Positions 2,129 to 42,490 of a stretch of 64,000 nucleotides of DNA are shown here, piece by piece. Source of the DNA: Candidatus Omnitrophota bacterium (GTDB taxonomy: Bacteria; Omnitrophota; Omnitrophia; Omnitrophales; Aquincolibacteriaceae); the NCBI GenBank assembly GCA_043718225.1, contig JAYSWD010000022.1, forward strand, positions 327-64,326. Direction: 5' to 3'. The notes beneath the pieces were generated by a model. That model did no database searches. It was not told where the DNA came from and was given only the letters and a program-made list of their open reading frames with translations. Every line of letters begins with the position of its first letter. Position 1 is the first letter of the stretch. A program made the translations under genes and the position numbers.

Positions 2129-2224
2129 ATGAATACAAAAACACCATTTTATAAAGGAATTTCTGCATTTACGGTAGCCGCCGTGTGCTTGACGCAGATT
2201 TTCTTCGAGCAGCCCGCTCTGGCG
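2129..2224 (+). other. Predicted signal peptide of the giant protein
   Basis: MNTKTPFYKGISAFTVAAVCLTQIFFEQPALA|Q has a basic N-region, a hydrophobic core and an A-L-A cleavage-type motif. Confidence 0.6.
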
Positions 2225-5200
2225 CAAATGCCGGAAACGCCGCGCGCTTTAAAAGCTGCCGCGGCGTTTCAAATCGAAATTCCTCCCGAGCTCGGAAGAA
2301 TCGAAACCATTACTTCCGGAACCGGTCCCGTTTTCATCCACATCCAGGAAGCGCACGGGGATTATGAGTCGCAGAAGAAAATCGAAGCCTTACTGCATTA
2401 TCTAAAAAAACAGTACGGCGTGAAGCTTGTTCTGGTTGAAGGCAGCGCCGCGCAGCTTCATCCGGAGATTTTGAATTTTTTCCCCGCTGATCCCGCTGCG
2501 ACAAATAAAGTCTTGGACGCATTGGCGCGCGAGGCCTGGGCCAAGGGCACCGAAAGTTTTCTCGTGTCCGATAAAGAAACCGCGGCCTACGGTATCGAAA
2601 CATTCGGAAGCTATTTAAAAAACGCACGGCAATTTCAAACAATTTTAGGGCGCCGTAATGAAACGGCAGATTTTATCGATGCGCTGCAGTCGCGCATGCA
2701 GCAGCTCGCGTCGGTTTTACTTAATAAAAATTTGCGGTCTTTTCTCAGGCGCCGGCAGAGTTATGATGAAAAAGAACTGCCGCTTGCGGAATGGGTAGAG
2801 GCCTTGAAAGGCGAAGCCCGCAAAACTCTGAAAATTGACTTAACCGATCCGCTTTATCAGCTCGATTGGCCGATGTTTTTAAGGCTTTCCAAGCTCCAGG
2901 AATTCGAGACGGCGCTGGATTTTAAATCACTGCCGGCTGAGCGGCGCCGCTTTTTAAAATCTATCCGCCGGTTTTGCCCGGGCCTTATCTATCAAAAAAT
3001 TGAAGCGCTATTATCTTTGCCGCTTTCGCGCAACAATCTCTCCGACCCCGAAACCGGCATGCTGATTGAAAGCATGGTTTCCTATTTACCTGCAAATTTT
3101 AATTATGCTGCTTACCCGAACCTGAACCGTTTTATCGGACATTTGATCATGCAAAGCGAATTAAAAGGCGCCTTGCTTGCGGCTGAGATTGAAAAATTAG
3201 CGGCGCAGACTGCCGAGGCTTTGACGGAAAATCCGGTGGAAAAAGAGTTTCTGGATTTAGCCGCGGATTACCGTGCGATCCGTAAAATTTTTGATTTGGA
3301 ATTGAGTACGGAAGATTACGAGAATTTTTCGTCCGCGGAAGCCAGAGAACGGTTATTACCGTCGCACTTGCATCAACGGCTGAGCTCTTTTGAAAAAACG
3401 AACAGGGGCGAATCACTTGCTGCCATGGATGCAATGTTTACGCAAATCATGGAATTTTATGCGGGCGCCAAAAACCGTGACGGCCAAATGGCAGGACATA
3501 TTCTTGAACGCATGCGGCAAACTGGCGAAACCAAAGCGGTTATTCTGACCGGCGGGTTCCATTCGAAAGGTTTGGGAGATTTTTTGCGCGCGCACAACGC
3601 GAATTACGCTTTAATCAGCCCGGTGATTGAAGGGTTAGCGCACCGTGATGAATATTTTAAAACGTTTCTGGAAACCAGTTTTGATTCCGCCGGTCATTCC
3701 GCGGTGATGCGCCCCTGGCTTGCCGATTATAAAAATTTTCCGTGGTCTCCGGTTTTTGATCAGGCCCGCGCTGCGGCTGTAAACCGCTTTAAGCCGGAAA
3801 ATACAATTCTGCAAACAAGGGCCGGCGTGCATGAGCCGGATTTGACAGAAAAAGAGACCCGACACCGGACTGCGCCCGCACTGCCGGAATCGTTTTATGA
3901 CTTTGCCCCCGGCGGCCCGATTGCTTTTGTCGCTCGGTCTGAAATGCGTTTTTTAAACAACGGAATCTTCATATCAGCCGGAATATTTTTCAGCCGGTTG
4001 GCGCGACCTTTCGTCGAATTTATAAAATGGTATGGTGCGTGTCTACGGGAAACTCCAAGTCTGAGCCAGGTTGCCGACGAAGAATGGATCCGCTGGTGGA
4101 AAGAGGCGCCCACGGAAGAAGTTGCCAGAAAGATGGAACAAACGCTGAGAAAAGGAGAAAAGCTTTTTTCAAGATTCAAAACGAGGATCGACTCGTTGGG
4201 AAACCGCGGCACGCGGGGTTACGAAAGACGGCGTGAAGACGCGCAAACGGTTTTGTTTGATGAAATTCTTCCGGTTCTCCGGCACCAAGATTTTATTTTG
4301 GATATTTTAAAAAATCGCCGCGCCCAAAATGACGGCTGGGGTGCAACGATAGCAGCATTTGATAGTTTATTCCAAGAGGCGCGCAAAAAATATTACGGCT
4401 ACGAATCTCTTATAGGGCGATCTTTGCCGCTGCCGCAAAGACTCGCGGGACAACTGCCGGTCTCGGTTACTCATGATTTGAAAGTAGCCTTAGAAGAAGC
4501 GCGGCAACTTTTTTCAAAACTAAAAAAATTCGGCACATGGTTTAAATGGCTGCAAAAATCCGATAAAGAATTCTTTATCGGTAAAATTGTTCCGGCTTTT
4601 CTGGATCTAAAGACCATTGCGGAACTTTTGGAAGAACGCGGTCTTCAACATGGCGGCTTAACCGGTGCCATCGCCGAGTTTTCCCCTTTATATGAAAAGG
4701 CGCGCGCAAGAACCGGCGTTGATTTTTCTCAAGCATATGCCGCGTCAAACAAAAAATATGAAGAGTTATATGCGAGAGAAAAAGCAAAGTTCGGAGTTCC
4801 CACTACACTCCAGGAATTTATCCCTCGCCGCCAAGAAAAGAGCCCGTGGTTGGAAAAAATCGAAGCGGCCTTATCCAGAATACCTGTCAAAAGCCCGCCG
4901 GAGGATACGTCCGTGCCGCCCAAGTCGCCCCCTGTCGAGACCCCAAAAAGCGATGGAGGAGGAAACTATTATTTGATTCGAATACTGCAGCGCGCTATTG
5001 ATCAAGATATGGAAGCGGCTCGGAAATTGGACGGTCGCGAAGAAGCTTCAGTCACAAAGGAAACCCTATTTGCTCAAATCAAAAAGAATTTGGAAAAACT
5101 GAATGAAGCTTTACAAGGTCTTCGCGTAGAAGCGGCCCAAAATTCCGCTCGAGCATCCACTCAAACTGTCTCTCAGCGCGTGCAACAGGTTTACCGGAAC

Positions 5201-8200
5201 AATCAGCGCGCTTATCTGTTGGAAAGTTCCGATGCAGCAAGGCTCGTTCTAAAGCTGGAGCGCGCCAGAATCGAATATCAAAACAGGTTAGATGCCCTGC
5301 CGAGCAGAGCAATTTCCGCAAAGAAAGCCCTGCTGGCCACAATCGAAGAAATTGTAAAAATGAAGAATATAGCATCCCAACTTCGCGCGTATGAGGCCCA
5401 AAATTCCGCGCCGGATACCAATGGCGTGCTGCGGCTTGCGGCGGAAATAAATGACCGGCGTTCCCAGCGCAGCAACCCTGGCAAGGCAGCAAGACGCAGG
5501 CAGAAGTATCTCTCGGAACGCACACGCATTGAGGCTCTGGCTGCTCCACCCATCATTGGCGCGATACCAGATAAGCAACTTTTACAGCTTGCCCGCGAGC
5601 ATGAGGCTAACCGGCTAAAAGAACTATCTAACGAGTTGGAGCGCATCCGCCGGCAGCAAAAATTAGCGAGAGATTTGGAGCAAGGCGCGAATATGTCTCA
5701 AGATTCCGCCGGCATAAAGTACCAAGATACCCTCGCTTTACGGCGGTCTTATGCTGAAGACTGGGCGCGGAGACCTTACACGAGCGAACCTTCTTGGCGG
5801 TTTGTTGATGGTTGGGCGCAAAAGGATGGCACGGAAGAAAGTCCCCCCAGACAGTCAGAGGATGAGGACTCAGGGTCTTATGCAGGAAAATCTTACTGGC
5901 AGCGGCAGTATGGTGAACGCGACCGCGCAATCGAGGATTATCTCAACCGAGCGCAAATGACTTTTGAAGCGCTTCAGAAGCGCCGGGGTTTACTGAATCA
6001 TCGAAGAATAGTTGCGCAGAACACACGGGAAAAAATAGAAGGAAAACTGAGGCAAGCCGAATTTTCGCTTCGCCTTGTCAGCGTGCGCCGGAATTTGGCC
6101 GCAGCCTTTTTGGATGACGGAGATGTGGACTCAGCCGCGCATGAATGGAAAGCGGCGGACGCGGCGTTGAGACACATGGGAGGGCAGCAAACCGAGCTGA
6201 GCATAGAGGTCGAACGACATCAAAGAGTTATGGACACCAGACAAAAACTGTTACGCGCAGGGCTTGAATGGGCTGAAAAGGATGCAGGCGAGCTCACAGC
6301 CATCGGCCGGCCGCTTTTTTCCGGAGAAGAAAGAGAACCGGCAATGGCTGGAGCACTCGCCCGGCTCAATCGAATGCTGCCGGGGGATGAAAAAAAAGAA
6401 ACAAAAATGCGCCGGTTGTTTAATAAACTTTTGCGGCTGTCTCATGCGGCACAGCCTTTAACCCAATCCAAACGCGAGATTTCAAAGCTTCTAAAGGCAC
6501 TTAAGCACAAGCAAAGTCTCAAGGCGCTGGCGGATCATCAAAGCTATTTGGCGGCCCTCTTAGCGCAAACTTCTGAACTTGATTTTTCTTTGTACGCCGA
6601 AGCGAAAGAACTAGCCGAAAAGTTGCGGAAATTTGCCGACAGAACCGCGGCATGGGACGAGGCTATACCCGAAAGTGTGGGACCGGCCTATGATTTGGGC
6701 CAGAAGCTGGCGGCCTTTACTATTAAGTTAAGACAAGCCTTTGAAAAATGGATAGAAGAAGAAAGCCCGCACAGCGAATGGATGGATGGCCAAGTCCGTG
6801 CAATGAACGGCCGTGTTCATGATGCACGGGAAATAATTGATGCCGTCACGGACGGTGAAAGGACGCTGCGGGAAAAAATCGAAATGGCCGGAAGTTTACA
6901 AAGCAGCGTAATGAGCGCCGCGCTTGAGGTTCAGACGCTGCGGAGCCAATGGACGGCGATTGCAAACGGACAGGCGGCTGAAATAGGCAAGAAGGACGGT
7001 TCGCAAGCGGCGCATGCGCTTTTGCAGAAAGCGGAAACAGCGCTGCGAATAAAATTAGAAAAAGCCCGCCAAGCCGCTGCCGGATTTGATCAACTCGGCG
7101 TTCCTAAAAATGAAAGGGTATTAGCGGCCCTGCGGCAAATCAAAAAAGACAATGAAACTGCGGAACGCATCTTGGCATCCGCGCGAGTGCAAGTCATCAA
7201 TCAGGAAGCGGAGCTGCTTTTGGCGCGTATTCCGGAGCCCGCGGCCTTGGCAGATTTATATCATAAAAATCCAGCGGCCGTATTGGCGCGCCTGGAAGAA
7301 GCGGATGCCGCAATAGCCTTTTTGGCGCTGCTGGAACCTCAAGCGCGAGTTGCGGATCAAAACTTAATCGCCGGCTATCAAAATATTACATATGTGCCAA
7401 GTGATGTCCTTTGCAATGTGGATCGCCTCCATAACGATGCGCAGCAAAGGAGAGCACAGGGTCAAATCGTTCTGGATCTTTTGAAAACTGCAACCCGATT
7501 GCATGTACGGGCTGTCATGATAACTCACTTGCCGGCCGGTGTTGCTTCTGTTCCGGAAATCAAAAGTCTTGAAAAATTACGTGGCGGCCTTGAATCCATC
7601 GGAAGCGAATTGGCCGAGCGGGGAATGATCAATCATCCGGCGGTTGCCGGCGCTATAAAAGCGGTTCAAACCGGCATTGCCGCGCGGCAGGCCTTCCTTA
7701 GAGCCCGGGCGGAAAAAGAAAAAGAGTGGCAGGATGTACGCAAACACGCGGCGCTGCTTTATAAAAATATGTTGGATAACAGAAGGCAGGTTCATGGAGT
7801 TGCGGCAATTGTCGCGGTTTTAGATTCGGCACCCGGCTCTTTAAGGGGAATGTTCGCGCAATCAAAAGATGCGTTAGTCCGTTTACGCGGGTTGGCGCTG
7901 GCAGCCCACCGCTTGAATGGCCGGCTGATCAAATTAGAAATGACAGATGAAACCGCGCTTGCCGGTATTTTAGATGAAGTGCGGCAAGCCGCTGATCCAG
8001 CAGACCGGCAAATCCAGCGGGCGCGCCGGGCCGTGGAACTTTTAACTCAAGCCAAAACCGTTTCGGAGCAGGCCGCGGTACTTTCTGAAAGTATGCCGTC
8101 ACCTTTGGCTGTCGCCGCACTTTTCAACCGGCAAGGTGAAAAAGCTTTTGCTGTTGTGCGCCGCATGGTGCAGGAACAGGAAAGTCAATTCGAACAATTA

Positions 8201-11200
8201 CAACATCGATTGGATAACCTGCAACAAAAAATCGAAGCCGAAATGTTTAAAAAAGAAAACCTGGTTGATGAAGCGCTGCAGAGAGAGCAAAAGAAAACAG
8301 CAGCGGCAAAAGATCGCCTTGTCGCCGCCGGGCGGGAGGTTGAAGCGGCCATCGATGTCATTTCAAGCATAACGCAGGCCGCTGTCCGGACCGAGATACT
8401 TTTCCGGCAGTTGCGCACGCTAAATCCGAAGCGAATCGACGGGTTTTTTAAGCAGGGCGGTTTTAAGTTGGTGGCGGACCAAATGCGCCAACGCGAACAA
8501 AATTTCAAACGCGATTATCGGAAAGCATTACAAGAACATCATATCGCCGAAGCCCTTCAAGATGCCCGGCGGTGGGGAATTCTGGAAATTCCGGCGCTAG
8601 CCGCCCCATTCAAACTCATCGATGCGGCGCCGGCAAGGTTTGCAGCCTTTGTGTCGCCTTTGCTGGACCGTGCCGCGCGCCGCCAAACCGCTTCTGATCT
8701 TTTGGATGAGGCGCGGCGATACAAACAGACGGTTCTTGCACTGACGGAACAGGAAAAAATTAGAGATGAATATTTGCAGCAAGGCGGTAGCGCGGGCGCC
8801 CATTCTTTGGTTCAGGAAGCACGCGACATTCTTACGGATCAAATCAAAACCCGCGCGCAGCGTGCCCGGGAAGCTTTAGCTCCAGATGCCGATTTACAGC
8901 CGGAAGTTGCGCGCGAATTCGAACAAATTATAAATTCGGCCAACCAAGCCATCGAAGACGCCGGAAATCAAATTTCAAAAAGCGAAGCAGACAGCCGCCA
9001 GGCCGCTCAAGAAGCCGCGACGAAAACGAAAAACTTGCGCTTGCAAATTACGGCACAATTAGGCCGGGCAGGTGATTTGTTTGCGGAAATTGACAGAGCT
9101 TTTTTAAAGCCGGGCGGAAGTTTGAACGCTTGGGAGCTCATTACGCGCGCGCGTGTGGCTGCGGAAAGAATGTCAGTCCATTTGACAAGGATTCGCGTCG
9201 AAGCCTCAAGACTTCCCGAAAAAACCACAACGCTTCAAAGCTTGATGCAAGCCGAAAAAAACCGGCGCGCAATTCGATATTTATTGCAAGCGGCGGCGAA
9301 GCATCTGCTTGAGTTAGAAGAAAAAAGCCGGTTTGCCGCCTTGACAGCCGCTCTTCAGGCTTCTGTCAGACAGCAGGTCATTGAAAGGATATTTGCCGAA
9401 GGCGGTCAACAATTTGGCTTTTTAAAGCGTATTTATCTCGAGTCCGGCAGCTCTCAAGCGCGCGAATTGCTTGAAAAAGCGCAAGCATTGGCGGGGCCGA
9501 ATAGGGCGAATGAATTACCGCGCGGCAGTACGGGGTTCAGGGCGGATTTCACCGTCGCCGCCGAAGAAGAAAACCGTTTCCCGAAAGTTAAACGCCAGGG
9601 CCACGAGGCCGCCATTCAAGAAAACTGGCAGGTGGCAAGCGTGCTATTACAGCAGGCCGCCCGCGAGGTGGAAAGACTCAAACAACAAAGCCGTGCAGAA
9701 TCTGTTCAAGCGGCTTCATCTTCGGGTAAGCTGCATGACGAAATTGAAGCCGCTTTGGGTGATCCGACTCAGCCGTTAATTCATATCCGTGACATTTACC
9801 TTAAGCAAGGTGCCGCCGCCGCGCGGAATACGGTTCGGGAACTGGAAATAAAAGCGCATGGTTTTATTCCTTTGGGCGTGACGGCTGTGACTGCGGCGCG
9901 CCGGCTGCCGGAACAAACCGTGCTGGATAACCGCCGCAAAATCGCAAATGACCGTCTCGCTATCCGGCAGCAAATCCGCGAGGCGCGGCGCATGATCGCT
10001 GTGATGGAAAATCAAAGTGTCCAAGTTTCCGCAAGAACCGAGCAAGCCGCGGAATATTTGGCGAAACGGATTCAAAGCGATTTGAAACGGGTGATTTCGC
10101 ATTATTTGGATGAGACAAAAGGAGCGGCAGTTGCGGAAAGCGATATCGCAGCTGCGGAAAAATCCGCCGAAAATTTTAACAGGCTGCTTGGGACGGCGCA
10201 AATGGCATGGGAGCAATTGCAATATGCATACGGCGAAATATTCGTATGGTTCGATTTACAAAAAATCAAACAACATCAAGCAGCGGTGCGTCAAGCGCTG
10301 ACGGATGCGAGACAGGCGCTTGAAAATACGAAAAACGCCAGCCGTGTCATTGCTTTTCTGGCCGACCAAGATGCTTCAAGGCTTTATGCGCTATCAATCC
10401 CAAGTTTCGGTGATAAAAGCGATCAATTTGCGCATGTACGCCGCATTTTCTTCAGCGAAGGCAGTGCCGCTGCACATGAACATGTCCGCCGAATTCAAAT
10501 AGCCTCCGAAGCATTCGATGGTTACGTCACTGACAGCGAACGCGAAAAAAACCGGCTGCCCGAACAGTTAATAATTGATCAACACAATCGAGTTGCGGCT
10601 TATCGAACCAGGGTTGCGGCACAATCCCGCATAGCTTTCAATTTGATCGAAAGTTTTGAAGCCACAGTTGAACAGCAGGCAGCCGCTGCGGGCGTCGAAT
10701 CTGCTGCGGCGCTGCGCAGGTTGAATCAAACGCTGATAACGGTGCAGGATATTATCGATCAACAAGGGCCTTTGGCGCAGGCGCAAAATGCGGTCAAACA
10801 AGCGCGCGAACAACTTGCCATCATCCTCGACCAGCAGCAAAGAATCGTGGATTTAGCAGGCATTTTTAATTCAGAGCGCGTGCTCGCAGCGAACGGCCAA
10901 GCAGCTCAAAATGCAATCAATGCGAATTCTGCCATCGCTAATGCAGAAGGGAGGATTGCGAAAGAAATCTGGAGCATTCATTTGCAATCATCTCAAGACA
11001 TGGCTGCGGCCGAGCAGATTGCGGGTGAAATTAAGCAGGAGGTCGAGGGCCAGTCAGTCGCGGTTTATTTTTCTCAAGGAAGCGCCGCCGCGGGCGGCCG
11101 GGTTGCGGAAGGCGAAAAACGGGCAGCAGATATCGAATTGCTTGAAAGCAATGCCGCCAGACGTTTACGGCGGCTCGATGACGATACTACGCGCACGTAT

Positions 11201-14200
11201 GACGGCCGGATCAGAAAGGCACGAGAGGATTTAGCCGCTCTTTTCGCAAACGAACGCGCGCAAATTGAACGATTGCGCGCGCAAAGCGCCGCTTCAGCCG
11301 AAGATGCGCAGCAAGCGGCCCAAACCATTTTCAATGCCGCGGCCAATGCGCTTGAACATCTTGGCGGTTCTTTTAGCCGTGGAAAGGCAGACGTTGTGCT
11401 CGCCGTTTTACGTGAAATAAAGATGAAGGTGCTGGCCGGTCATTTGGCAAACGCCGAGCGGGCGGGGCATGAGCTTGATCGTCCCAATTTGCCGCAAATC
11501 ATCGCGATTCAAAATCTTCAAAACCAGCTGGATGCGTTGCTTGAGGGCGGTCAGTCGGCTTTGACTTTATGGAAATTGATCCAACGGATTACTTTGACCG
11601 CGAACAATCTTTTGCGGACGGGAGATCGAACTACTGCCGTACTAAGCGCTGCCGCGTGGTTACGTTTTGAGACATTTAAATTGGAAGCCGACGCAATCAA
11701 CGCACAAGTGCGTAGCCCGACCGCCGCGCAGGTGCTGCCCCATTACATTCAAACCGGGACACAGCTGTTGGTAATTATGCAGCAAGACGCGCAGCGTCTC
11801 GCCGACAATCGGGATTTAGACCAATATGAAGGACTCTTTCGCGGCTTTGCTGCCGCTATTTCGGGCTGGAGCAGTTTTTGGCGTGTTCATCAAATGCGGC
11901 AAATCGTGGTGCAACTTGAGAATGGCCGGACATGGTTGACCGAATTGTTAAACGCTTCGGAGGCTGCTTTCGGAGACCGGCAATTAGCGTCCAATTTCGC
12001 GCAAAGAAGGGATGCACTGCGGGAAAAAATCGAAAACCGTTTGAGAGCGGTAAACCGATGGCTTAAGTTTTTGGCGCTGTTTATGCCAAAAAGAGAAGCG
12101 CAATTCCCAGTTATTTTGAAAAAGCGACCAGTCTCAATTGCCGAAGATATAAATCAAACAATTCCGCAGCCGGCTGAACTAGTAACCCCATTCGTGCCTG
12201 CCGCCGCAGCCGGAAATAAAGATGAATTCATAGCTTCGCCGGCAACACTGGCTGGAGTCATCGGCGATGATGCTCTGCCGGTGGCTTCCTCGCCTGCGCG
12301 GGCATCAGCGCCGGTAGCGAAAAGTTCACCAACTTTACGGCACCCAGATTGGCGCGTGTTGAGCGGAATTGCCGCAGCGGTAGCTGTTGTTGCCGCTGTA
12401 TGGCTGATCCCTTCGCTTCAGCACAGAAGTAAAGATATCAAAGCACCGTCCGCGGTTTTGACGGCAACGTCAGAAACTCAAAATCCGGAAGCAAATGCTA
12501 CAAACGAGAACAATCCCCGTATGGGCATTCGATTCACACAGACAGCACCGCAACCAGCGCAATCACCGGCCGCTGAGCCTGCAGGTTTTGCTGCAAGCAA
12601 TACTGTTGCGTCCAATGCCGCCGATCGACAAACCGGCAGTGCAGTTGCCGGCAAAACCGGTGAGGAAAATTCGTTTAGCATCGGAAGATTTTGGATCAAT
12701 ATTTTTTGGAAACTTGGCGTGCTACTTATTATTGTTGGAGCCGCATCCTTATTAAGATTGAGGCGCGCAAAGCCGCAAACGGCGAAGCGTGTTGTCTCTG
12801 GCACGGCAGCGATTCAACCGCCAGCAGATTCAGGCTTAACTAAAGCCGGAACGATTGCGGAGGCCGCGAATATTTTTCCTCAATTGCCCGTTAAAGCGTC
12901 AAAGACTGCACCTGCGATAGGGGAACCACAGTCGAACCCCGTAGCGAAGAAGAACGCGCCGCTTTTATTGACGGCAGGAGCGGGTGGAATAACGGGCGCG
13001 GTAGAAAATACTTCCGATGCTTGGATGCAAATTTTTGAGCAACAGGTTCTACCGCTTATTCTTTCTGGCAATAATTCCGCGCCTTTACTTTTAATGCCGG
13101 GTGCGTCAAATGAGGCATCGGCAGCATTGGGATTTGCGCTTAATACCGGTTTCCAAGGTTCTTCAACGTTTACACATGGTCATGTCCCGCAAAATAATCC
13201 GCTACAAAACCGCACCGCGGATAATTCAGGAGATATCTTGGCGCAACAAATTGACGCGTTTTTGAGAGCCGGCAGAAAAGAGCCGAGTCAATCAAACGCC
13301 CCTGAAAGTTTTTGGCCGCAAGCCATCCAATTTTTGTCAGGTAAACCAGCCGCTTCGCCATCTGATCCGATGTTTTTAACCGAACGGCCAGCGCCTCTTT
13401 TACTTACAGCGGGTCCTATCGGGAGGATAGCTGAGACAGTTATCACCGTTCAAGCCGAACGGTTTAATCAAAATTGGGAAGAAGTGGAAAAATGGCAGAT
13501 GCGACAGCCAAAACCGGAATCGATTGAAGCAGAAACGGAAACAACCGGTTTTTCCGAAGCGGACATTTTTAACAACATGAAGCCGAGTCGTTTGGCTTGG
13601 CAGAAAAAATCAAAACCGCGGACCAGAATCGTGCCTGGCGAAATGCCCGAACAACCGTTTGAACATATCAGCAGACAGGCACAAACCGGTGTCGGAGGAA
13701 TTTCATCTGCCGCCGCTACCGGTTTAAGCGCAGCTTTAGTTACGGACACGGCTTCGGAACAGGACATAACCGGTGAAACGGCAGTAAGCCCACGTACCCA
13801 TTGGCGGGACAATCATTCTAGGACAATCACGAATGCCGAAAAAAAAGATCATGTTAAATTAACGCATAAAGATTGGCGCGCTGCCAAAAAAGTATTGCGC
13901 CAACCGGTTGTGGGGCTGGTAGACACTGAGCGTCAAATAATCGAGCAAACAATACATCGAGAGCTTGCGGCAGCCGCGAAAGCGCAAGACGCCGTTACGG
14001 CGCAGAAAGCTATCAGCACGGCGCTGGCGTTGGTACCGGCCGTATCCGCTCATTTATGGCCCGTTATTATGATGGAATTAAACCGGGCCGATGCGGCGGT
14101 GTCGAAACGTTTCGGAACACCGTTGATGCTTACTGACCGCGAACGCCAAGTCGCAACGGACGAAAACGTTGCAAGCACGGTAGTTGAACAGCCTGGTTCA

Positions 14201-17200
14201 ATGGATGAGCAATTAAAGGACACAGCGGCAGAGGAAATCAAATTACAGCCGGTCAGAATAGCTGTTTCGGAAGAAGCCGAACCCGCCAAAACGGCGCGGC
14301 CTAAAATTATCCTTACAGGTTCAATTGCAGCGCTGCTTCCGCCGGTAGTCTCTGCTGCAACGGGAAAAAGGCCTAAAAAAGCGCAATTGCGGAAAGGTAA
14401 ATCCACCGCACCTAAAATGCAAACTGCCGGCGCACGCGTAGCAGTGACGGAAATGCCGGGGGTAGACTCAGCGGTGCCGATTATTACAGCCGGTCCTGTA
14501 GCTCCCACGGCAATTATTTTGGAAAGCGATTTATTTACAGCTCAGCCGGCAGACGATGAATCCAACGAGGTCGGTATTTTTGCAGAAATAAAAGCCCAGA
14601 GGCTTATTGCGACAAGAAGATTAATGCTTAATGACCTAAGCGTTTCGCCCGCAGTGCGCGCTCAGGCAGCAACCCAAATTCCTGCCGCCGCCTTTGCCAG
14701 GGATACACTTTTACCCAAACTTTTGGAAAGACTTATTGAGCAATTGCTGCCTGATTCTGGCGAACGTTTGCTGCTTGAGAATAGACAGCGGGAAGCGCGC
14801 GCGCTAGCGGCTGATCCGGCCGAATTAGACGTTCAAAGCGAAGATGCCGTTGCACCTGTCAAAACCAAGCGGCCTAAATTTATTCTCACAGGTTCAATCG
14901 CCGCATTGCTTCCACGGTCCGTGCGCGTTACAACCGACGCGACACCCGCGAGCGAACAGACAGTCGAATTTTTTACAGAAAATTCCGTCTCCGATGCCGT
15001 TCAGCCGGTTGCAGTTACATCTGATCTTGATGTCCAATTACCCCAGGCCGGCGCAACAGCTGCAGAAATTGCGACGGTTGTGCCGCCTTCGGTTTCCAAC
15101 CCGGAATTTATTTTGGCCGGACCCATTGCGGTTCCTTCATTGAAACTATCGGCGCATAATTTTTATTTTGTTCCCGTCGGCTTCTATGATTTGGGAACAA
15201 GATTAGCTGCGGCCGCCACCGGCGGAGTCATTGCCGGAACCGCCGTCGTTATGGAGGAGAAAGGATCTTCAACCGAAAAACCTGCCGATTCAAAAAAGCC
15301 TTTTGTTTTATCGCCTAATGATTTGGAACAAGATTTGTTTACATCGCCGACGAGAGATAATGAATATCAATTTGCTCAATCTGCCGATTTCTTGGGTGCC
15401 TTGGTCCGCAAAGGAATGCCTTCTAATCTTGTGCGGGGGAATTTTAGTGCTGCACCGAATTCGCCGGCGGGAGAGGATGAATCCGCTCAAACCGGTGGAA
15501 CAGACAGAGTGATTGTCTATCCGGACATGCACGCAGCAGCCGCGCAAACAGAAGAATCGCCCGAGACTGCAGGTTTGGATGCTGAACAGGAAGATGGCGG
15601 CAAAGCTGCGGTAAGTCCCGTTCCTGCTGCCGCAGCGCAAAAAGGCCGCGGCCGAAAATGGATTTTGCCCGCAAGCATCGCCGCCGGGCTGACACTGGCC
15701 GCCGGCCTGGCTGTTTGGAGTTTTATTTTACCGGCGCGGGTTCCCACTCTCGCTAAAGTTACTCAATCCACAGAGGAAAGCGATGAAGACAAAAAACTTG
15801 TGGAAATGATTAACGGTCAAATTCCAAAAATTTCAGCTGCTGTTAAAGACTTGCAAGCCAATTTCGTTGAATTGGATACACAAATATCAAAAGGTAAAAA
15901 AACGATAGGCCAAATTGAAAAACTCACGGAACAAGTGCAAGCCGAGCTGGCTCGGCTGGAAAAAATGCCGGACAAAATCAAAACTAACGAATGGAAAGCA
16001 CAGCTGAAGAGCAAGTTTGGCCTTTTAGAGAGGCGTCAAGAAGACCTCACGCAGAATGTTAATGTTTCAGAAACCCAACTGGCAGCGCTAAAGAAACAGC
16101 GTGATGCTTGGAATATACAAATCGAAATGTTCAAAACAATCATCGAAATGAAACCCGGAGACCGGCCAAGGGCTTTACAGCAATTGCAATTTGCTTATCT
16201 CAATTTACAGCGCGCGCGCGATTTTCACGATCGACAGCCCAGGTATTTGCCGGCTACTTTCAGTCCCGAGTCAAACCAGAGTAGCAATTCGCCGAATGAG
16301 AAGTTTGAAAAACTTTTAGGGGAATTTAAAGAATTAAAAATTGCGCTGGGCAAAGCTGAAGAAGTTCGCAAAAAAGCGTTGCAGGACATGCTGGAAAGAA
16401 ATCAGCGGGCCTTAGAGAACCTCGCGCAATCCGGAGAAGCGGCTCAGGGGGCAATTATTGAAACGGAAATATATTTGGCCAGCCTGAAGCAAATCAGTTT
16501 TTCCAAGCCACTAGCATTGTGGACATCTTCTACTACAGTAACGGATCCGGCGGCTCATGAAAAAATAAATATCGCACCTGAAAACCCGGAAGTTAATATC
16601 GCAACTCATCCGCCGGTGCTTGATATGCCGCCGACAAATCTTTCCGAACCTTTAAAGCCGAGCGTAGCGTCCGCGCCTTTGCCCGAAACGACAGCTTTGC
16701 CGGAAATGGGTGGAGAAGAACAATTGATGCTTCAAGCTTTGCCCCCGGCACAGCCGGCATCGACGGCGCCTTTTGCTTCCGGCACAGGAGTTGATTTGCA
16801 TGGGCCAACTAACGTGGATGCTGAACTGGCAAAACCCGCAGTTGCTCTATCAATGCCATCTTCCACGGTTGCGGCTCCGTCCGCCGCGCCGGCTGCTGCC
16901 TTGGAAACCCAATCTGCTTCGCCATCCGCACAAACCGATTCATCGGCCGCAGTCAATTCCGGCGGACAAACTAATACCGGCCGCGGGATACCTGTCGTGC
17001 CGGTTGCCGTGACGATAGCTCCACTAGCTCCATTTTTAATCAGCGGCACGCTTTGGGGGATAATGGGAGCATTGGCAGTTCTGATGCTTGCTTTCAGCGG
17101 ATGGCTTTTATTGCGCTTGCGTCCAAAAACTGTTTCTGCCGTTCCTTCGTCCGTTGCGGCTCCATCCGCCGCGCCGGGGGTAGGCTGGCGCTTTTCTTGG

Positions 17201-20200
17201 TTTAGAAAATCCGCGCCTAAACCGTTACAGCCCGCGCCAACAGCGGTGCCGCCAAAGACGGGAATAGCAGCACCGGGGCCCGCTCGAACAGCGCCTGCAA
17301 CTAAGAAAACCAGTGCGTTGCCGGCAAAACTAAATACTGCACCGCCTGCTTCTGCGGTTCTGCCCGTCAAAAAGGCTAAAACAGGTGCCGATGTGAAAAA
17401 TCCAATTCCGACTCCTACACCGGGAGCTTCGACGACAAATATTGTGTCCCCGCCATCAGCAGCTTCTTTGGGTCCGCCGGAAAGGCAGACTGCCGCAGCG
17501 GCCGGTCATTCAGAGACTTCTCCGCCGCCGGGAAAATCCGCTGATGCAAAAAATACAGATGATTCACCGCCGATACCGGTCGTGCCTTCTGGCGCGAAAG
17601 AAAAAGCCTCTGCTGTACCTGCAATTGCAGTACCCATTCCGGTAGTTTTGCCTGATGTAGCCGCAACGAGTCATGCCGCAGAAGAAAAGCCTGCGAATGC
17701 CGGCACGAATGCTTCGCATCCAGCTGAAACACACGCTTTAAAACCGGCTTCGGCTGATTCAATTTTGTCTCCGGTGCGTTTTAGACTACCCCGGTGGGTT
17801 ACGCCCGTTGCAGCGGCCGCGGGAATTGTTGCCGGATTATTTTTATTACACAAAACGCATCAAGAAAAATCGGGGGCCGGATCCAAAACCGCAATGACAT
17901 TGCCGGCAAAAGATTCCACGCCTGAAACAGAGGTGCAACTTCGCGACGATTCGCTTCCTGCAAATGTGGCCTCACCGGCGCCTGCTGCAACTGGTAATCA
18001 AAACTTGGCGGCAACACCGCAGCCGCCAACCATGGTTTTGGCCGAAGTGAATCTCAATGATTTGACGCTACGACCGGTGCCTGTATCGCCAATAACTTTT
18101 ACTTTCGGTTCAGCACGTCCCACGGCGGATATGACAAATATATTCGCACCCGCGCCTAAAATGTCGCCGTTCGATTTTTCCGAACCTTTTGTACCGGCGG
18201 CGCTAGCTTTGAATTTGCCTGATACAACGAACCTTCATTTGCCGGAAATAAGTTTTGATCATTTAACTCCGTACACTACGCCTTTATCGCCAATGCCCTT
18301 TGCTTTTGATGTGGCACGTCCCGCGGCGGACATGACAAATATATTCGCTTCCGCGCCTGAAATGTTGCCGCTCGACTTCTTCGCACCTTCTGCGACGACT
18401 GCGTTAGCTCTGAATTTGCCTGACACAACAAATTTGAATTTACCGAAAGTTAATTTCGATGATTTGACCTTGCGACCGGTGCCTGTATTGCCAATAACAT
18501 TTACTCTCGGCTTGGCACGTCCCGCTGCGGATATGACAAATATATTCGCTCCCGTGCCTGAAATGTTGCCGCTTGACTTCTTCGCACCTTCTGCGACGAC
18601 TGCGTTAACTCTGAATTTGCCTGACACAACAAATTTGAATTTGCCGAAAGTGAATCTCGATGATTTAAACCCTTTGCTGAAACCAACGGATGCTGGTTTG
18701 CCGGGAGTCGTTTTTCCGTCTGAGACTATGTTGAGCTCGACGCAACCGCAAGCAACACCCGGTGTTGTTCCGGAAACACCGGGTGTTGCAGGTTTAGAAG
18801 TTGCGTCTGCCCTTGTGCTTAATTCACCTACCGTGCCGCAACCTGAAAGCATGATAACGTTAACGGTGCCCGAAATGTCGCGATTTGCTTTTTCTGCCGA
18901 ACGGATTGAATTGGGTCTGACACCCGTGCCTTTGCTCAAGTTAACGGATGCTGGTTTGCCGAGGGAAGTGAATCCTCCTGACAACTTAACGTCGGGCGCT
19001 GCACCGGCTAGTGCTGTAAAAGTGAAACCGCCTTTCAGGGCGACGGTGTCTGTATTGCCGGTCCCAGTTGCGATAAAATTCGCATTAACGCCGCCGGGGC
19101 AAAGGTCCGAAAATTTACCGGCTGCTCCCGATTCCCAAATCACTAGTGCCCAAACAGAAAAAAAGAACGCTTCGCATGCGGCAGTATCGCAGTCACCCCA
19201 GGAAAGGGGGGGCTCTACGGTCGTTGCAACCCCAAAAGAAAGCAATCAGTCCGCGGAAGCAGAAGCAACAAAAGTGCAGAAGCCGGCTGTGACAGTTAAA
19301 GCAGCGGACAAATCCGTAATCGCTGAAAAAGTAAAATCGCCTGCCGGAGGCAAAACAGAAAAATCAAAAACGCAGGGTCAAGCTAAAGCGGGAAAAAACG
19401 CTCAGCCAAAAATAGAAATCAAAAGAGCGCTGCTCACACGTGCTTTGCAAGAAAACAGCCAAGGCTTGGATGTCTTTGCCGCGGAAGCAGCTTTGCAGGC
19501 ATTAAATCCGGCCAACACCCGGCTTATAGGTGAGGCCGATGGTGATTTTGATGGACGTTTGGCACGTGCCTCGGATACTTTCGCGCATAATTGGAATCTT
19601 GAGCATCCGGGGCAACCGCGTTTGATTTTAAACGGCCGCATTGAACCACAAAAGTTTGCCAGGATATGGGAAAGTTTGACGCCGCAGCAAGTGCATGCTT
19701 TGCAAGCAAAAGTTGATAATCAAAATTATGATCATGTAAAAGGCGGCGAAGCAGTGAAACAGGCGCGGGCGGCGCACAATAAAATCGCCAAGACGGAATC
19801 AATGCCCGCAGCCAAAATGATTGCGGCGGTTTCAACGGTTGGGGATATTACGAATACCGGACACGCTGAAGAGATGTTTGCCGCAAGCGGTGATGATACG
19901 AATACTGCGAAAAAATCATTGCAAACGGAACCCGACTCGAAAGAAACGGCAAGCACGCCTTCTGCATCTCAGGTTCCCGCACCGTCTACCGTTGTGAAAA
20001 CTGATCCGGTTTCGCCGCCCGCTGCAGCTTCCGCTGTGGGAGTTCAAAAAGAAGCAACGCCAGCTAAAGTTGCCGCAGGTCCGATTGCACCAAAACCCAC
20101 ATTGACCCAGCCGGTGCAGCATACGCTTCCCAAGGTGGGTGAAAAAGTAATTACGGCGGCAAAACCAGGGGTTTCGCAGCATGTCACCGGAAAAACGGCG

Positions 20201-23200
20201 AAAGCGAGTTCGTCGCCGCAGAAAATTTTACAGGCGCGGCTGACGCGTACTATTAATCCCGGCGATAAAGGACTCGATGTTTATAGCATTCAAGCATTTT
20301 TTTATACGCAAAGCGATTTTTACCGGAACTTAGTGGGTAAGCCGACGGGCAAAGCCGATCAACAGTTCAAGAAGACGGTTCTCACCTGGAAAACAAATTG
20401 GAACCGCACCAATCTTCGTCCCGGCAAAAAACCGCTGGAGATGACTCCTTCTCTTGATCAAGCAACTTACGCGACAATCCGCAGAAGTTTGGATGATACA
20501 CAAGTTTATAAAATGAACCAGCTGTATGCGCGTGAAAATTGGAAAGCGATTCCGGGCGGTATGCATGTTATCCGTGCCTTGAAAAAAAGGAATCAAGAAA
20601 AAGCACATACTGTAAGCTCTGCCGTGAAATTGGCGGCCGATTCAACAGTCGGGGATATTACGAATACCGGAAACGATGAAGTATTGTTTGCCGCAAGCGA
20701 CGACGATGTGAACTCTCAGGAAGAGACCGTGCAAACGGCGACCGATTTGGATGAGCCAGTATTCATAGCTCAAAATACCGTTTCAGTCGAGTTAACACCG
20801 GCTGCTGATTTGCCTGTTGCGCCGGAAGCGCCGATTGTTATGGATGCACCTGGCCATTCAACGGCAGCTGCGGCGCTATCTGCGCCTGCCCTTGCGTTTA
20901 ATTTACAGACCGTGCCGCAATCTGAAAGCACGGTCAAGTTACCGGTGGCCAAAAAGCCGCAGTTGGCTTTTTCTGCCGCGCCAGTAGAACCGGGCCTGTC
21001 GCCAACGGATGTTGGTTTGCCAAAGGGAGTGAATAATCCACCTGACAACTCAGCGTCGGGCGCTGCACCGTCAATGCCATCAGCCCCGGCGACACAAGAA
21101 GTTCCCACGCCTGCGCCAGCGATTGACAGCACGCCTTCGACACCTGAAATGCCCGCTGCTGCGCCATCAGCGACAATTACGCCGTCACCTAATTTTGCAC
21201 CGCTAGTTGTAAGCACGCCTTCTGTGCCTAAAACACCGGCGGTTGTGACGTCTATCACGCCAACAGCACCGGCACCGGCAGCTAAAAGTCTTGCTCCCGT
21301 ACTTCAACCGCCGGCAAACGAAATGTCGCCAACAAATACTCCGGCCGGCACGGCAGTCGATTCCGGCATCGGGCAATTCCAAACTCTTTTGCCGGAAGCG
21401 TCACGGGATCAAGCGGTTTCCGGAAATTTAACGGAGGCGCATCCCATTCCCAGAAATATGCCGCAAGTTCTCGATTCCGACCACGAGACCACGCCACATG
21501 AACTTGCGGCGCCGACCGCAAATCAGCCGCGGCCGGATATCGCGGCGGCCTATGTGCCGAAAGAAGAAAAAGCGCATGTTCAGGCAGCGACCGCGATGAC
21601 CAATGCAATTAACGAGTTAATTGCTAAAGGAGAACTCCCCTTGATGGCAAGCAATGGTTCGGGGGGGCAGCGCATGTCGCCGTCTGCCCGTCGGCACCTT
21701 GGCGACTTGCTGAAAGATTCACGGCGGGTTAAGGGCGATAAAAAATCTCCGAGTAATAAACCTAAAGCAGATAGTAAATCTGCAGATAATAAAAAAGCGA
21801 ATAATAAATCTAAGGCAAAAACGGTCAAAGTAGAAAAAAAGACAACGATTGTCACAAAGAATAAAGTTGGAAAGAATAAAACCGCAAATAATGGCATCAA
21901 AGATTATTCCCTGGTTACTCCCAACATGCGCGGCGCTCTTTTGGAGCATGTCCCGTTTCCGCCACAGTATTTCAAGCGCACAGTGGGCGGCACCCGCATT
22001 AATGCATCGCGCGACGGCGGAAAACGGGTTCATAACGGCCGTGACGGAGTTATGCCCATCGGCGTCCCGCTGTTTGCATCATTAAAAAATCCGTGGATAC
22101 GCTATGCGGGAACCATGGGTGGATACGGAAATATAGTTATCATTCGTGGTTGGGGTTTGGATGGTAAATTACGTGATTTTCCTCGTGGGCATGTCGGTAA
22201 AATGAAATTTTTAACGAATAATCAATTCGTTCCTTTTGCCCGGGCTCAACATGTCAAATCCAGTACGGTCGTAGCCTATTCTGGAAGATCAGGTATTAAA
22301 AATGACGCACCGCATACGCATGACGAATCATGGCTCGTAAAAGGCGGAGTGAACGGCGAAGGATGGCGTCTCGGATCAACCGGGCGTGATTTCCGCCTAG
22401 AGAACATTGATTGGATTTATGAAAATGCCGTGGATTGGAATGGCAAAGGTGGGTATGCTTCCAATAGTTTAGAAGCAAAAAAAGAAACAATAGGCCGCGG
22501 TTTTAGAAATGCGGGAATAGTTGGAATAGCTGCCGCCGGATTTATTGCCACGGCTCCGGCCGAAAAAAATGCTGCGAAAAATGTCAATTCGCGGGCGCCG
22601 GCGACGGATATTCTCGATCAAGCGCTGGCAGCTGCCGGTCTATCGATCCCAAGTTCTTCCCAAGCAGCGCCTGCCCGTGCGGCAAAAATTATTGCAGGTT
22701 TGAATGTGCGCGATTTGACGGCACATATTCCTTTTATTGCGCCTGTCCCCGATGCGCGTGGTTTCGGGATTAATCCCGCAAGCCCGCCCGCATTTCATCC
22801 CGCCAACTCTAAAGAAGAAGTGTCTTATAAAATTGCGCTCAAAGTAAATGCCGGATTGGCCATGCAAGCATTGCAAGATGCCTTGCGACAGAACAATTTA
22901 ACTTGGCCGAGACCGGGAACTCCTGAACGCAAGGCTCTTGTAAAAATATTCCTTCAAATGCCGCAGGAGGCGAAACCGGTTAGCCAGCAAAGCTCATTCG
23001 CGCAAGCCGATGCCGAGCAACGCCGGCGAGTGGCAACCCAAATTTTCTCCGCTTTGAAGTCCGCAAGCTCTTCACAGGCCTCAAGCACAAATTTGTGGCC
23101 CGCGTTAGCAAGGCTTAACAATTTGCCCGAAACCGCTGTTTTCAAGCCGCACAAAGCCGGTCTTTCCAAGACAAGTGTTTTCAAAGGTAAAAAGACTATC

Positions 23201-40813: not shown

Positions 40814-42490
<1,677 letters not shown>

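What the first reader, a model, noticed from the sequence alone, without database searches (positions are those of the whole stretch)
12356..17848. Several transmembrane helices deep inside the giant protein, and a topology parity argument
Hydrophobic helices with flanking basic residues occur at about aa 3410, 3521, 4511, 4955-4995 (a 42-residue block) and 5223. Internal TM helices in a secreted giant protein are unusual. After signal-peptide cleavage the N-terminus is outside. If the 42-residue block were a single helix, the PG-binding and M23 domains would end up in the cytoplasm. They reach the wall only if that block is a helical hairpin (six crossings). On that reading the ~3,400-aa N-terminal rod and the C-terminal lytic module are both outside, tethered by a membrane-embedded middle with cytoplasmic loops, one of which is the 15.8-16.5 kb coiled coil. 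Alternatively, the protein may be cleaved into separately localised pieces.
Basis: inference. Interest (0 to 1): 0.55.

Follow-up and report, generated by a model that had tools for sequence, protein, structure and literature searches.

The report
Membrane anchors inside an Omnitrophota giant protein

Summary
The ORF at 2129-24283 (+) encodes one 7,384-aa protein. The five hydrophobic segments sit exactly where reported (aa 3410, 3521, 4512, 4953-4995, 5223). They are non-amphipathic, flanked by K/R and embedded in disordered linkers. They are more frequent than chance: 4 strong segments against 0.55 expected, and 0 of 300 local shuffles reach 4.

The 42-residue block is not uniform. Its first half has four prolines (dG about +5.5 kcal/mol); only 4975-4995 is a strong helix (dG -1.0). 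The hairpin model scores -2 on K+R flank bias. Models that also put the C-terminus outside without a hairpin score +5 to +9. Parity also changes with the hydrophobicity cut-off (5 segments or 8), so it cannot decide the topology.

The M23 domain is supported, with all five active-site residues present. The "PG-binding" domains are not supported by any test.

The N-terminal signal peptide plus ~520-aa head domain defines a large, almost entirely Omnitrophota family of giant proteins. About half of its members carry scattered internal TM helices, an architecture already published for this phylum.

Unexpected: the family is punctuated by a five-residue motif, R-[SA]-E-[LVMIF]-R (304 observed, 3.2 expected). 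In this protein it occurs twice, at the head/body and body/cap junctions. It is a candidate processing site.

The parts
2129..24283 (+). Single giant ORF, 7,384 aa, including the stop codon
   Evidence: An identical 7,384-aa protein is called as one gene in the public protein library (P0004).
2129..2224 (+). Sec-type signal peptide, aa 1-32 (n-region K4/K9, h-region 12-26, A-L-A|Q)
   Evidence: Read from the sequence. Equivalent N-termini occur in family members.
2240..3790 (+). Conserved 'head' domain (HIQEAH ... TGGFH), aa 38-554; distant Tiki/ChaN/erythromycin-esterase-like
   Evidence: 222 relatives in GTDB genomes, nearly all Omnitrophota. Invariant H34, Q36, H39, E67, E120, R215, E316, R413 and TGGFH. 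Pfam PF04187 is below its cut-off. AF2 pLDDT 75; the Foldseek top hit is EreC 6xcq, E 0.034.
3935..3949 (+). RSEMR punctuation motif (aa 603-607) at the head/body junction
   Evidence: It lies about 129 aa after TGGFH; the family median is 123.5.
4046..12118 (+). About 2,700-aa Ala/Leu/Arg/Glu/Gln-rich helical repeat 'rod' with no strong hydrophobic segment
   Evidence: Internal repeat 2484-2627 versus 2708-2844.
12356..12412 (+). TM1, aa 3410-3428 (VLSGIAAAVAVVAAVWLIP)
   Evidence: KD 2.35, dG +0.9. K+R flanks 3/3.
12689..12754 (+). TM2, aa 3521-3542, with an internal Lys; C-flank RLRRAKPQTAKR (+6)
14306..14362 (+). Weak hydrophobic segment, aa 4060-4078 (IILTGSIAALLPPVVSAAT), flanked by +3/+7; one copy of a repeated motif that also begins TM3
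   Evidence: KD 1.78, dG +4.3. Motif copies at aa 4058, 4249, 4325 and 4509.
15662..15730 (+). TM3, aa 4512-4534; N-flank QKGRGRK (+4), signal-anchor-like
15797..16498 (+). Coiled-coil-like stretch, aa 4557-4790, directly after TM3
   Evidence: Read from the sequence. Only weak coiled-coil Pfam matches.
16985..17047 (+). Pro-rich hydrophobic lead-in, aa 4953-4973 (4 Pro); the proposed first arm of the hairpin
   Evidence: dG about +5.5.
17051..17113 (+). TM4, aa 4975-4995 (LWGIMGALAVLMLAFSGWLLL); C-flank RLRPK (+3)
   Evidence: dG -1.0, the strongest segment.
17795..17851 (+). TM5, aa 5223-5241; N-flank VRFRLPR (+3); marginal hydrophobicity
   Evidence: KD 1.74, dG +3.6.
18038..18685 (+). Tandem ~67-aa Pro-rich repeats, aa 5304-5519
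   Evidence: Self-BLAST, 55-65% identity.
19085..20755 (+).
   Evidence: No family, structure or homologue match.
22025..22354 (+). Divergent M23 (LytM-type) peptidase domain, aa 6633-6742, with HxxxD, GH and HxH intact
   Evidence: Pfam E 0.005, below the cut-off. PDB 3slu/6muk E 0.02. P0010 E 6.6e-4 against the library. 38% identity over 112 aa.
23309..23323 (+). RSEFR punctuation motif (aa 7061-7065) at the body/cap junction
23324..24280 (+). Conserved C-terminal 'cap' domain, aa 7066-7384; contains the non-TM hydrophobic helix at aa 7306
   Evidence: Homologous to P0005-P0009 and to the C-terminus of L028.

Best explanation
The gene encodes a member of an Omnitrophota-specific family of modular giant envelope proteins. 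A Sec signal peptide and a conserved ~520-aa head start the protein, and a conserved ~320-aa cap ends it. Between them lies a lineage-specific 6,450-aa body with three parts: a ~2,700-aa helical repeat rod, a ~1,900-aa low-complexity region, and a wall-directed end that carries an M23 peptidase.

The five hydrophobic segments in the low-complexity region are genuine single-span TM helices. They staple the body into the producer's cytoplasmic membrane. The flanking charges make TM3 and TM5 signal-anchor-like (positive N-flank inside). They make TM2 and TM4 stop-transfer-like (positive C-flank inside). On that reading:
- The loop with the coiled coil (aa 4535-4952) is periplasmic.
- The basic Pro/Ala loop (aa 4996-5222) is cytoplasmic.
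- The whole C-terminal 2,100 aa, including M23, is periplasmic.

The 42-residue block is one helix (aa 4975-4995) preceded by a Pro-rich hydrophobic lead-in, not a hairpin. The remaining parity conflict lies on the N-terminal side: a signal peptide says the rod is outside, while TM1 plus TM2 give an odd count. The most likely resolution is that only one of TM1/TM2 truly spans the membrane.

Shown here: the segments, their statistics and charges, M23, and the family membership. Inferred: actual insertion and the sidedness of every loop.
For: - Segments and statistics.
- K+R bias of explicit topologies: TM2-TM5 alternating with the C-terminus outside scores +9, dropping TM2 instead scores +5, and the hairpin scores -2.
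- The first arm of the block has 4 Pro and dG about +5.5.
- M23 active-site residues are conserved, so the C-terminal end needs access to peptidoglycan.
- Family context: the head is found at 222 places, almost all in Omnitrophota MAGs. Most of these ORFs run past 3,800 aa.
- 24 of 45 members with a long visible tail have at least one strong hydrophobic segment: 59 observed against 20.9 expected.
- Published descriptions of SP+TM giant proteins report about 2% of residues in TM helices (10.64898/2026.06.07.730766; PMC10066038). This protein has about 1.3%.
Against: - No dedicated topology predictor could be run. The scales used are simple sums.
- TM1 is at least as hydrophobic as TM2, so there is no objective reason to drop either one.
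- TM5 is marginal (dG +3.6).
- No orthologue exists for testing conservation of the helices. The only full-length match in 15 billion proteins is the protein itself.
- Family members place cytoplasm-type domains directly behind the signal peptide and head without an intervening TM helix: REC and HAD in P0006; HATPase_c and PEP-utilizers_C in L044, which has no TM segment. Standard topology logic may therefore fail for this family. The published papers say the same.
Confidence: 0.55

Rival explanations
1. All five blocks span the membrane, the 42-residue block is a helical hairpin (six crossings), the rod and the lytic module are outside, and the coiled coil is in a cytoplasmic loop.
For: - It satisfies both the signal peptide (N outside) and M23 outside.
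- The block is long enough (43 aa), has no charged residue, and has S-G-T in the middle.
- Both of its outer flanks are basic (+1 and +3), as expected if both face the cytoplasm.
Against: - The first arm has 4 Pro and dG about +5.5. That is no better than the segments at aa 3964 and aa 4060, which the model ignores.
- K+R bias is -2, because the +6 flank of TM2 and the +4 flank of TM3 would face outward.
- S, G and T are weak turn formers in hairpin assays (my recollection of the Monne/von Heijne work; not checked here).
Confidence: 0.1
2. All five helices span once and the rod is cytoplasmic (N-in, C-out). Only the head is exported, which needs an unrecognised crossing or a cleavage at the head/body junction (RSEMR followed by FLNNGIFISAGIFFS).
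For: - It has the best charge bias together with the four-span model (+9).
- TM1, TM3 and TM5 all have basic residues right at their N-side, and TM2 and TM4 at their C-side.
- A short hydrophobic patch flanked by Arg follows the RSEMR motif.
- Family members carry cytoplasm-type domains after the head.
Against: - The junction patch has only about 12-15 hydrophobic residues, includes two Asn, and did not reach the KD 1.4 threshold.
- Other family members have no such patch, for example P0006.
- A cleavable signal peptide normally commits the following chain to export.
Confidence: 0.15
3. The protein is a processed polyprotein or a secreted effector. It is exported, cut at RSExR motifs (possibly by its own head domain), and its pieces act separately. 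The hydrophobic helices would then anchor or insert the body elsewhere, for example into a prey membrane.
For: - The RSExR motif is about 100-fold enriched in the family (304 observed, 3.2 expected). The constraint is at protein level.
- It lies at domain borders: around REC in P0006 and at the end of HATPase_c in L044. Median spacing is 292 aa.
- It is rare in ordinary neighbouring genes (6 in 155,095 aa).
- Stand-alone heads sit next to motif-rich ORFs (L001).
- The head weakly resembles a hydrolase superfamily.
- The literature suspects cleavage but knows no sites.
Against: - This protein has only two motifs, both outside the TM region. Cleavage at them leaves the five helices on one 6,450-aa piece and does not change its topology.
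- No cleavage has been shown.
- The head's similarity to hydrolases is below significance thresholds.
- Sec would treat TM1 as a stop-transfer signal, which argues against release of the body.
Confidence: 0.15
4. The segments are chance hydrophobic runs in Ala/Leu/Val-rich low-complexity sequence and are not membrane-embedded.
For: A global shuffle of the protein gives 1.8 segments with KD >= 1.9. TM5 and TM2 are only moderately hydrophobic on the biological scale.
Against: - A local shuffle of the region gives 0.55 against 4 observed, and 0 of 300 shuffles reach 4.
- Each segment is bracketed by K/R clusters and has a low hydrophobic moment.
- The 3,375-aa rod, of similar composition, has none.
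- The same feature recurs across the family.
Confidence: 0.05

Closest known systems
Omnitrophota giant ORFs with a signal peptide plus scattered TM helices (Seymour et al. 2023, PMC10066038; West-Roberts et al. 2023, 10.1101/2023.11.21.568195; Nielsen & Lui 2026, 10.64898/2026.06.07.730766)
   Same: - An ORF longer than 20 kb with an N-terminal signal peptide.
- Isolated TM helices spread through mostly unannotated sequence, about 1-2% of residues.
- A cell-wall-degrading domain.
- Poor conservation of the body.
- Head homologues lie almost exclusively in Omnitrophota MAGs.
   Different: - At 7.4 kaa it is below the >=10 kaa and >=30 kaa catalogues.
- Pfam found no SecA_DEAD, C39, S8, dockerin or TSP3 domains.
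- No type II secretion or PilZ genes lie next to it among the neighbours scanned.
- The head/cap/RSExR organisation found here is not mentioned in those papers.
Peptidase family M23 (LytM, EnvC/NlpD-type)
   Same: The HxxxD ... GH ... HxH signature and the GYGN core align with solved M23 structures and with P0010. A coiled coil lies upstream, as in EnvC-type proteins (my own knowledge).
   Different: It scores below Pfam's gathering threshold (17.3 versus 28.7 bits). It has an insertion between the GYGN core and the GH motif. It is embedded 6,600 aa into a giant protein.
MARTX toxins and viral polyproteins (giant precursors cut at short recurring sites by a built-in protease)
   Same: A very large modular precursor. 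A short recurring linear motif lies at module borders. A conserved candidate hydrolase domain is present in cis, or in trans in an operon.
   Different: - No cleavage has been demonstrated.
- The motif and the candidate enzyme are unrelated to the CPD or 3C-type proteases.
- It has an N-terminal Sec signal instead of a C-terminal type I secretion signal.
- This particular member has only two motifs.
Tiki / ChaN / erythromycin-esterase superfamily (head domain only)
   Same: There are weak Pfam PF04187 matches around the TGGFH motif in 5 of 40 heads. EreC and Bacillus cereus BcR135/136 are the best structural matches to the AF2 model. Invariant His/Glu residues resemble GxxH...E...GxxH motifs (the motif comparison is from memory).
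   Different: All scores are below significance (Pfam 19 bits versus a 27.7 cut-off; Foldseek E 0.034, TM-score about 0.2). There is a large helical insertion. A profile search against PDB sequences found nothing.

Membership tests
Omnitrophota giant SP+TM proteins | ORF longer than 20 kb encoding a single protein | tested here: met
   22,155 nt, 7,384 aa. Called as one gene in the public library.
Omnitrophota giant SP+TM proteins | Encoded in an Omnitrophota genome | tested here: inconclusive
   The window's own contig was not found in the genome collection. Head homologues (25-44% identity) occur at 222 places; among the 80 listed, every record that names a taxon is Omnitrophota/Omnitrophica and the rest are titled only 'uncultured bacterium'. 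No rRNA or tRNA in the window.
Omnitrophota giant SP+TM proteins | N-terminal signal peptide plus internal alpha-helical TM segments | tested here: met
   Met by hydrophobicity, charge and moment criteria. DeepTMHMM was not available.
Omnitrophota giant SP+TM proteins | SecA_DEAD, C39/S8 peptidase, or dockerin/TSP3 domains (Archaeovorin and Dockerin types of West-Roberts et al.) | tested here: not met
   Pfam on the whole protein and on ten pieces found none. It is therefore not a member of those two named subtypes.
Peptidase M23 | HxxxD and HxH zinc/catalytic motifs plus the intermediate catalytic His | tested here: met
   H6635, D6639, H6688, H6729 and H6731 align with P0010 and with 3slu/6muk.
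Peptidase M23 | Score above the Pfam PF01551 gathering threshold | tested here: not met
   17.3 bits versus 28.7; E 0.0054.
PG_binding_1 (peptidoglycan-binding domain) | Detectable sequence or fold similarity to PF01471 or to solved PG-binding domains | tested here: not met
   - No Pfam hit at E <= 1.
- No PDB hit with the single sequence or with the two-copy profile.
- No homologues.
- The AF2 model has pLDDT 50, and Foldseek gave no match with E <= 0.001.
Helical hairpin (two closely spaced TM helices with a tight turn) | Two arms, each hydrophobic enough to partition into the membrane | tested here: not met
   Arm 1 (aa 4953-4973) has dG about +5.5 and 4 Pro. Arm 2 has dG -1.0.
Helical hairpin (two closely spaced TM helices with a tight turn) | Overall topology consistent with the positive-inside rule | tested here: not met
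   K+R bias is -2 for the six-crossing model, against +5 to +9 for the alternatives.
Helical hairpin (two closely spaced TM helices with a tight turn) | Both ends experimentally on the same side of the membrane | not testable with these tools
   Needs reporter fusions or cysteine accessibility.
Tiki/ChaN/erythromycin-esterase superfamily (head) | Significant profile or fold match | tested here: inconclusive
   PF04187 at 19.3 bits versus 27.7, matched by 5 of 40 members. Foldseek EreC E 0.034, probability 0.84, TM-score 0.17-0.21. The PDB profile search was negative.
Autoprocessing polyprotein | Recurring short motif at module boundaries | tested here: met
   304 observed against 3.2 expected in the family. 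Motifs lie at Pfam-domain borders, and the first motif falls 58-199 aa after TGGFH in 40 of 71 members.
Autoprocessing polyprotein | Demonstrated cleavage at the motif by a cognate protease | not testable with these tools
   Needs proteomics or biochemistry.

The most novel reading that the evidence does not exclude
The head-bearing Omnitrophota giant proteins are polyproteins. The conserved, exported, erythromycin-esterase/Tiki-like head would be a processing hydrolase. It would cut at the R-[SA]-E-[LVMIF]-R motifs that punctuate the family about every 300 aa, releasing single-domain products.

In the window protein this would give three products: the head, a 6,450-aa membrane-stapled rod-plus-M23 body, and the cap. 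That would supply the cleavage points that the published giant-gene studies say are missing. It would also explain why whole-chain topology predictions for these proteins look paradoxical.
Probability: 0.25. Interest if true: 0.75.

Novelty: new member of a known kind. Interest (0 to 1): 0.35.

Why it matters
The TM helices themselves add one more example to a published pattern: giant Omnitrophota proteins threaded through the membrane.

The useful corrections are these:
- Parity counting on such proteins depends on the hydrophobicity threshold and should not be used to place domains.
- The charge pattern already puts the M23 module outside without invoking a hairpin.
- The 'PG-binding' label should be dropped.

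The follow-up has wider value. It defines a large giant-protein family by a conserved head and, in a subset, a conserved cap. It also found a short, strongly over-represented RSExR motif at module borders. If that motif is a processing site, giant Omnitrophota proteins could be split computationally into their real products for structure prediction and topology analysis. The question of whether they act as one chain or many would then become directly testable by proteomics.

Tried and rejected
- Whole-protein Pfam scans in two halves found nothing; only short pieces gave weak hits.
The search with aa 2400-7384 timed out.
- The C-terminal 825 aa gave no hit in the word-indexed search and no locus in GTDB genomes.
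- The exhaustive search of aa 6186-7384 returned the protein itself (P0004, 100% identical despite the printed 93%) and six weak partial matches. No orthologue is therefore available to test conservation of the helices.
- Looking up the neighbouring S9 peptidase to find the source contig failed.
- tblastn of the giant protein against all 82 loci held at that point found no similarity beyond aa 600.
- 'PG-binding' was tested by Pfam, PDB phmmer, a two-copy PDB profile, a homology search, AF2 and Foldseek. All were negative or meaningless.
- I first took the Tat-like N-terminus of P0005 (SRREVLK) as evidence that the cap domain is extracytoplasmic. I rejected this because P0005's reading frame is open to the 5' end of its 3.3-kb contig and is preceded by ARGEVR, so it may be an internal fragment.
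- Counting TM parity in other head+cap members (P0006, L028) gave threshold-dependent counts and was abandoned.
- NCBIfam has no model for the head, cap, M23 piece or TM region.
- A literature search for 'RSELR' returned only unrelated software names.

Full report
**What is there**

The window carries one uninterrupted ORF, 2129..24283 on the + strand, of 7,384 codons. An identical 7,384-aa protein is present as a single called gene in the public protein library. It is the only member of its cluster and comes from one NCBI contig of 64.6 kb. The finding's coordinates map exactly to aa 3410-5240.

**Checking the observation**

A Kyte-Doolittle scan and a Hessa-2005 scan, both with 19-residue windows, recover the reported segments:
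- aa 3410: KD 2.35, dG +0.9.
- aa 3521: KD about 2.0, dG +1.75.
- aa 4511-4516: KD about 1.9, dG +0.5.
- aa 4953: KD 2.03, but dG about +5.5 to +6.
- aa 4977: KD 2.14, dG -1.0.
- aa 5223: KD 1.74, dG +3.6.

All have high mean hydrophobicity and a very low helical moment. They sit in flanks made up 68-79% of Pro/Ser/Thr/Gly/Ala/charged residues. They are therefore isolated hydrophobic helices in disordered linkers, not the cores of globular domains. Each is bracketed by Lys/Arg.

The chance test gives the following:
- A global shuffle of this Ala/Leu-rich protein gives 1.8 segments with KD >= 1.9.
- A 200-aa local shuffle of aa 3380-5260 gives 0.55 against 4 observed. None of 300 shuffles reaches 4.
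- The 3,375-aa rod upstream has no such segment.

A further hydrophobic helix at aa 7306 lies inside a conserved globular C-terminal domain and aligns with its homologues, so it is not a TM helix.

**The 42-residue block**

The block is not uniform. Residues 4953-4973 (GIPVVPVAVTIAPLAPFLISG) contain four prolines and sum to about +5.5 kcal/mol. Residues 4975-4995 (LWGIMGALAVLMLAFSGWLLL) are the strongest TM candidate in the protein.

With a cut-off near +3.7 there are five helices. With a cut-off near +5.6 there are eight. Parity therefore flips with the threshold and cannot carry the argument.

**Topology from charges**

I enumerated topologies with K+R counted in the 15-residue flanks, in the manner of TopPred.

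| Model | K+R bias | C-terminus |
|---|---|---|
| Five single spans, N outside | -9 | inside |
| Four spans without TM1 | +9 | outside |
| Four spans without TM2 | +5 | outside |
| Six spans including aa 4060 | +5 | outside |
| Five spans with the rod cytoplasmic | +9 | outside |

The pattern behind these scores is simple:
- TM2 and TM4 carry their basic cluster on the C-side (RLRRAK..., RLRPK).
- TM3 and TM5 carry it on the N-side (QKGRGRK, VRFRLPR).
- TM1 is balanced (3/3).

The charges therefore already orient TM5 inside-to-outside and put the C-terminal 2,100 aa outside, with no hairpin needed. They put the basic Pro/Ala loop aa 4996-5222 (net +14) inside. The unresolved conflict is at the N-terminal side: a good signal peptide against an odd helix count. 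I think the likeliest answer is that only one of TM1/TM2 spans, but this is an inference.

M23 is real but divergent:
- Pfam E 0.005, below the gathering score.
- phmmer hits to the M23 structures 3slu and 6muk across the HxxxD...GYGN core.
- A library-wide hit to an ordinary M23 protein, P0010.
- A pairwise alignment of 38% identity over 112 aa in which H6635, D6639, H6688, H6729 and H6731 are conserved.

The 'PG-binding' domains are a duplicated ~280-aa orphan module. Every test on it failed: Pfam, PDB sequence and profile searches, homology search, AF2 with pLDDT 50 and Foldseek. I could only note a resemblance by eye, which is not evidence.

**Family context**

The first ~550 aa (signal peptide plus a domain with the motifs HIQEAH and TGGFH) have homologues:
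- Three were found in the word-indexed search, one named Candidatus Omnitrophica.
- 222 places were found in GTDB genomes. Among the 80 listed, every record that names a taxon is Omnitrophota/Omnitrophica; the rest are titled only 'uncultured bacterium'. There are often several copies per genome.

In most of these loci the ORF runs off the 10-kb flank, so it is at least 3,800 aa long. The tails are not homologous to the window's tail.

Among 45 members with at least 1,500 aa of visible tail, 24 have one or more strong hydrophobic segments: 59 observed against 20.9 expected. Internal TM helices are thus a recurrent feature of the family.

A subset (P0006, L028) also shares the window's C-terminal ~320-aa cap. 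P0005 and P0007-P0009 match the cap as well, but they are short or of uncertain N-terminus, so no head is seen in them.

The head gives an AF2 model with pLDDT 75. Its best PDB matches are erythromycin esterases (E 0.034, low TM-score). This agrees weakly with sub-threshold Pfam hits to the Tiki/ChaN family.

**What is already known**

- Seymour et al. 2023 (PMC10066038) describe giant ORFs over 20 kb in most Omnitrophota classes, with 'multiple predicted transmembrane helices'.
- West-Roberts et al. [quoted passage not shown]
- Nielsen & Lui 2026 classify 39% of 916 long proteins as SP+TM, with about 2% of residues in TM helices.

The window protein has 5 helices, about 1.3% of residues, and fits this architecture. 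It does not belong to the named Archaeovorin or Dockerin subtypes.

Family members also carry cytoplasm-type domains directly behind the signal peptide and head: REC and HAD in P0006, and HATPase_c and PEP-utilizers_C in L044, which has no TM segment. This is the same localisation paradox those papers report, and one more reason not to trust parity arguments here.

**An unexpected family feature**

While reading P0006 I noticed a recurring RSELR motif.
- Across the 82 head-bearing ORFs, R-[SA]-E-[LMFVI]-R occurs 304 times in 208,747 aa, against 3.2 expected from shuffles.
- All synonymous codons are used, so the constraint is on the protein.
- The flanks are nearly uninformative, and the median spacing is 292 aa.
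- The motif is rare in ordinary neighbouring genes: 6 in 155,095 aa.
- It lies at Pfam-domain borders.
- In 40 of 71 members the first copy falls 58-199 aa after TGGFH, which is the end of the head.
- Where the head is a separate gene (L001), the adjacent ORF carries five to six copies.

In the window the motif occurs only in the giant ORF. It occurs exactly twice, with about 0.1 expected from a composition estimate made by hand: RSEMR at aa 603 (head/body junction) and RSEFR at aa 7061 (body/cap junction). I found no mention of it in the papers I could search.

The motif is a candidate processing site. However, both copies lie outside the TM region, so cleavage there would not change the topology of the five-helix body.

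**Verdict**

- The TM interpretation is probably right.
- The hairpin is not supported.
- M23 is supported and PG-binding is not.
- The architecture is a new member of a known kind.
- The most interesting lead is the head/RSExR/cap organisation of the family, which needs proteomic or biochemical testing.

Noticed in passing
window 3935-3949 and 23309-23323; loci L003-L082, P0006: The five-residue motif R-[SA]-E-[LVMIF]-R punctuates head-bearing giant ORFs (304 observed, 3.2 expected; median spacing 292 aa; all synonymous codons used). It lies at domain borders. In the window protein it marks exactly the head/body and body/cap junctions. It is a candidate processing site, and I did not find it in the literature.
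   Followed up: partly
window 2240-3790; alignment A3: A conserved ~520-aa exported head domain (HIQEAH...TGGFH, with invariant His/Glu/Arg) occurs at 222 places in GTDB genomes, almost all Omnitrophota and often several per genome. It usually starts an ORF of more than 3,800 aa. It weakly resembles the erythromycin-esterase/Tiki/ChaN fold.
   Followed up: partly
window 23324-24280: A conserved ~320-aa C-terminal cap domain is shared with P0005-P0009 and L028. No Pfam or NCBIfam family matches it. It contains a hydrophobic helix (aa 7306) that mimics a TM segment.
   Followed up: partly
P0006 (2,924 aa); L044:9953-20014: Family members carry cytoplasm-type domains directly behind a signal peptide and head: REC and HAD in P0006, and HATPase_c, PEP-utilizers_C and UPF0489 in L044, which has no TM segment at all. 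This is a localisation paradox.
   Followed up: partly
window about 14300-15700 (aa 4058, 4249, 4325, 4509): A short hydrophobic motif, [RK]P[KE][IFW]IL[TAP][GA]SIAA..., recurs in the long loop before TM3. TM3 itself begins with a copy of it (KWILPASIAAGL...). A looser reading by eye suggests about four further, more degenerate copies from aa ~3611 (nt ~12960).
   Followed up: no
window 18038-18685: Three or so tandem ~67-aa Pro-rich repeats (55-65% identical) lie just after TM5. Their function is unknown.
   Followed up: no
L028 ORF, aa about 1680 and 1975: Two internal hydrophobic segments of a complete family member are preceded by twin-arginine-like motifs (ISRRQML, LTRRQVM), reminiscent of internal Tat signals.
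   Followed up: no
L001:228-4393: In one metagenomic relative the head is a separate 616-aa gene. Its stop overlaps the start of a downstream ORF rich in RAEVR motifs, so the head and a motif-bearing protein also occur as an operon.
   Followed up: partly
window 38707-40341 and 40847-42490 (- strand): Two adjacent GroEL/Cpn60 paralogues (544 and 547 aa).
   Followed up: no
window 37473-38591 (+), 48211-49749 (-), 49759-51432 (-): A cluster of signalling genes: a GGDEF protein, a PAS histidine kinase and a REC-GGDEF-EAL protein. A bacterial lipase-maturation-factor (LMF1) homologue lies just upstream of the giant gene at 48-1454.
   Followed up: no
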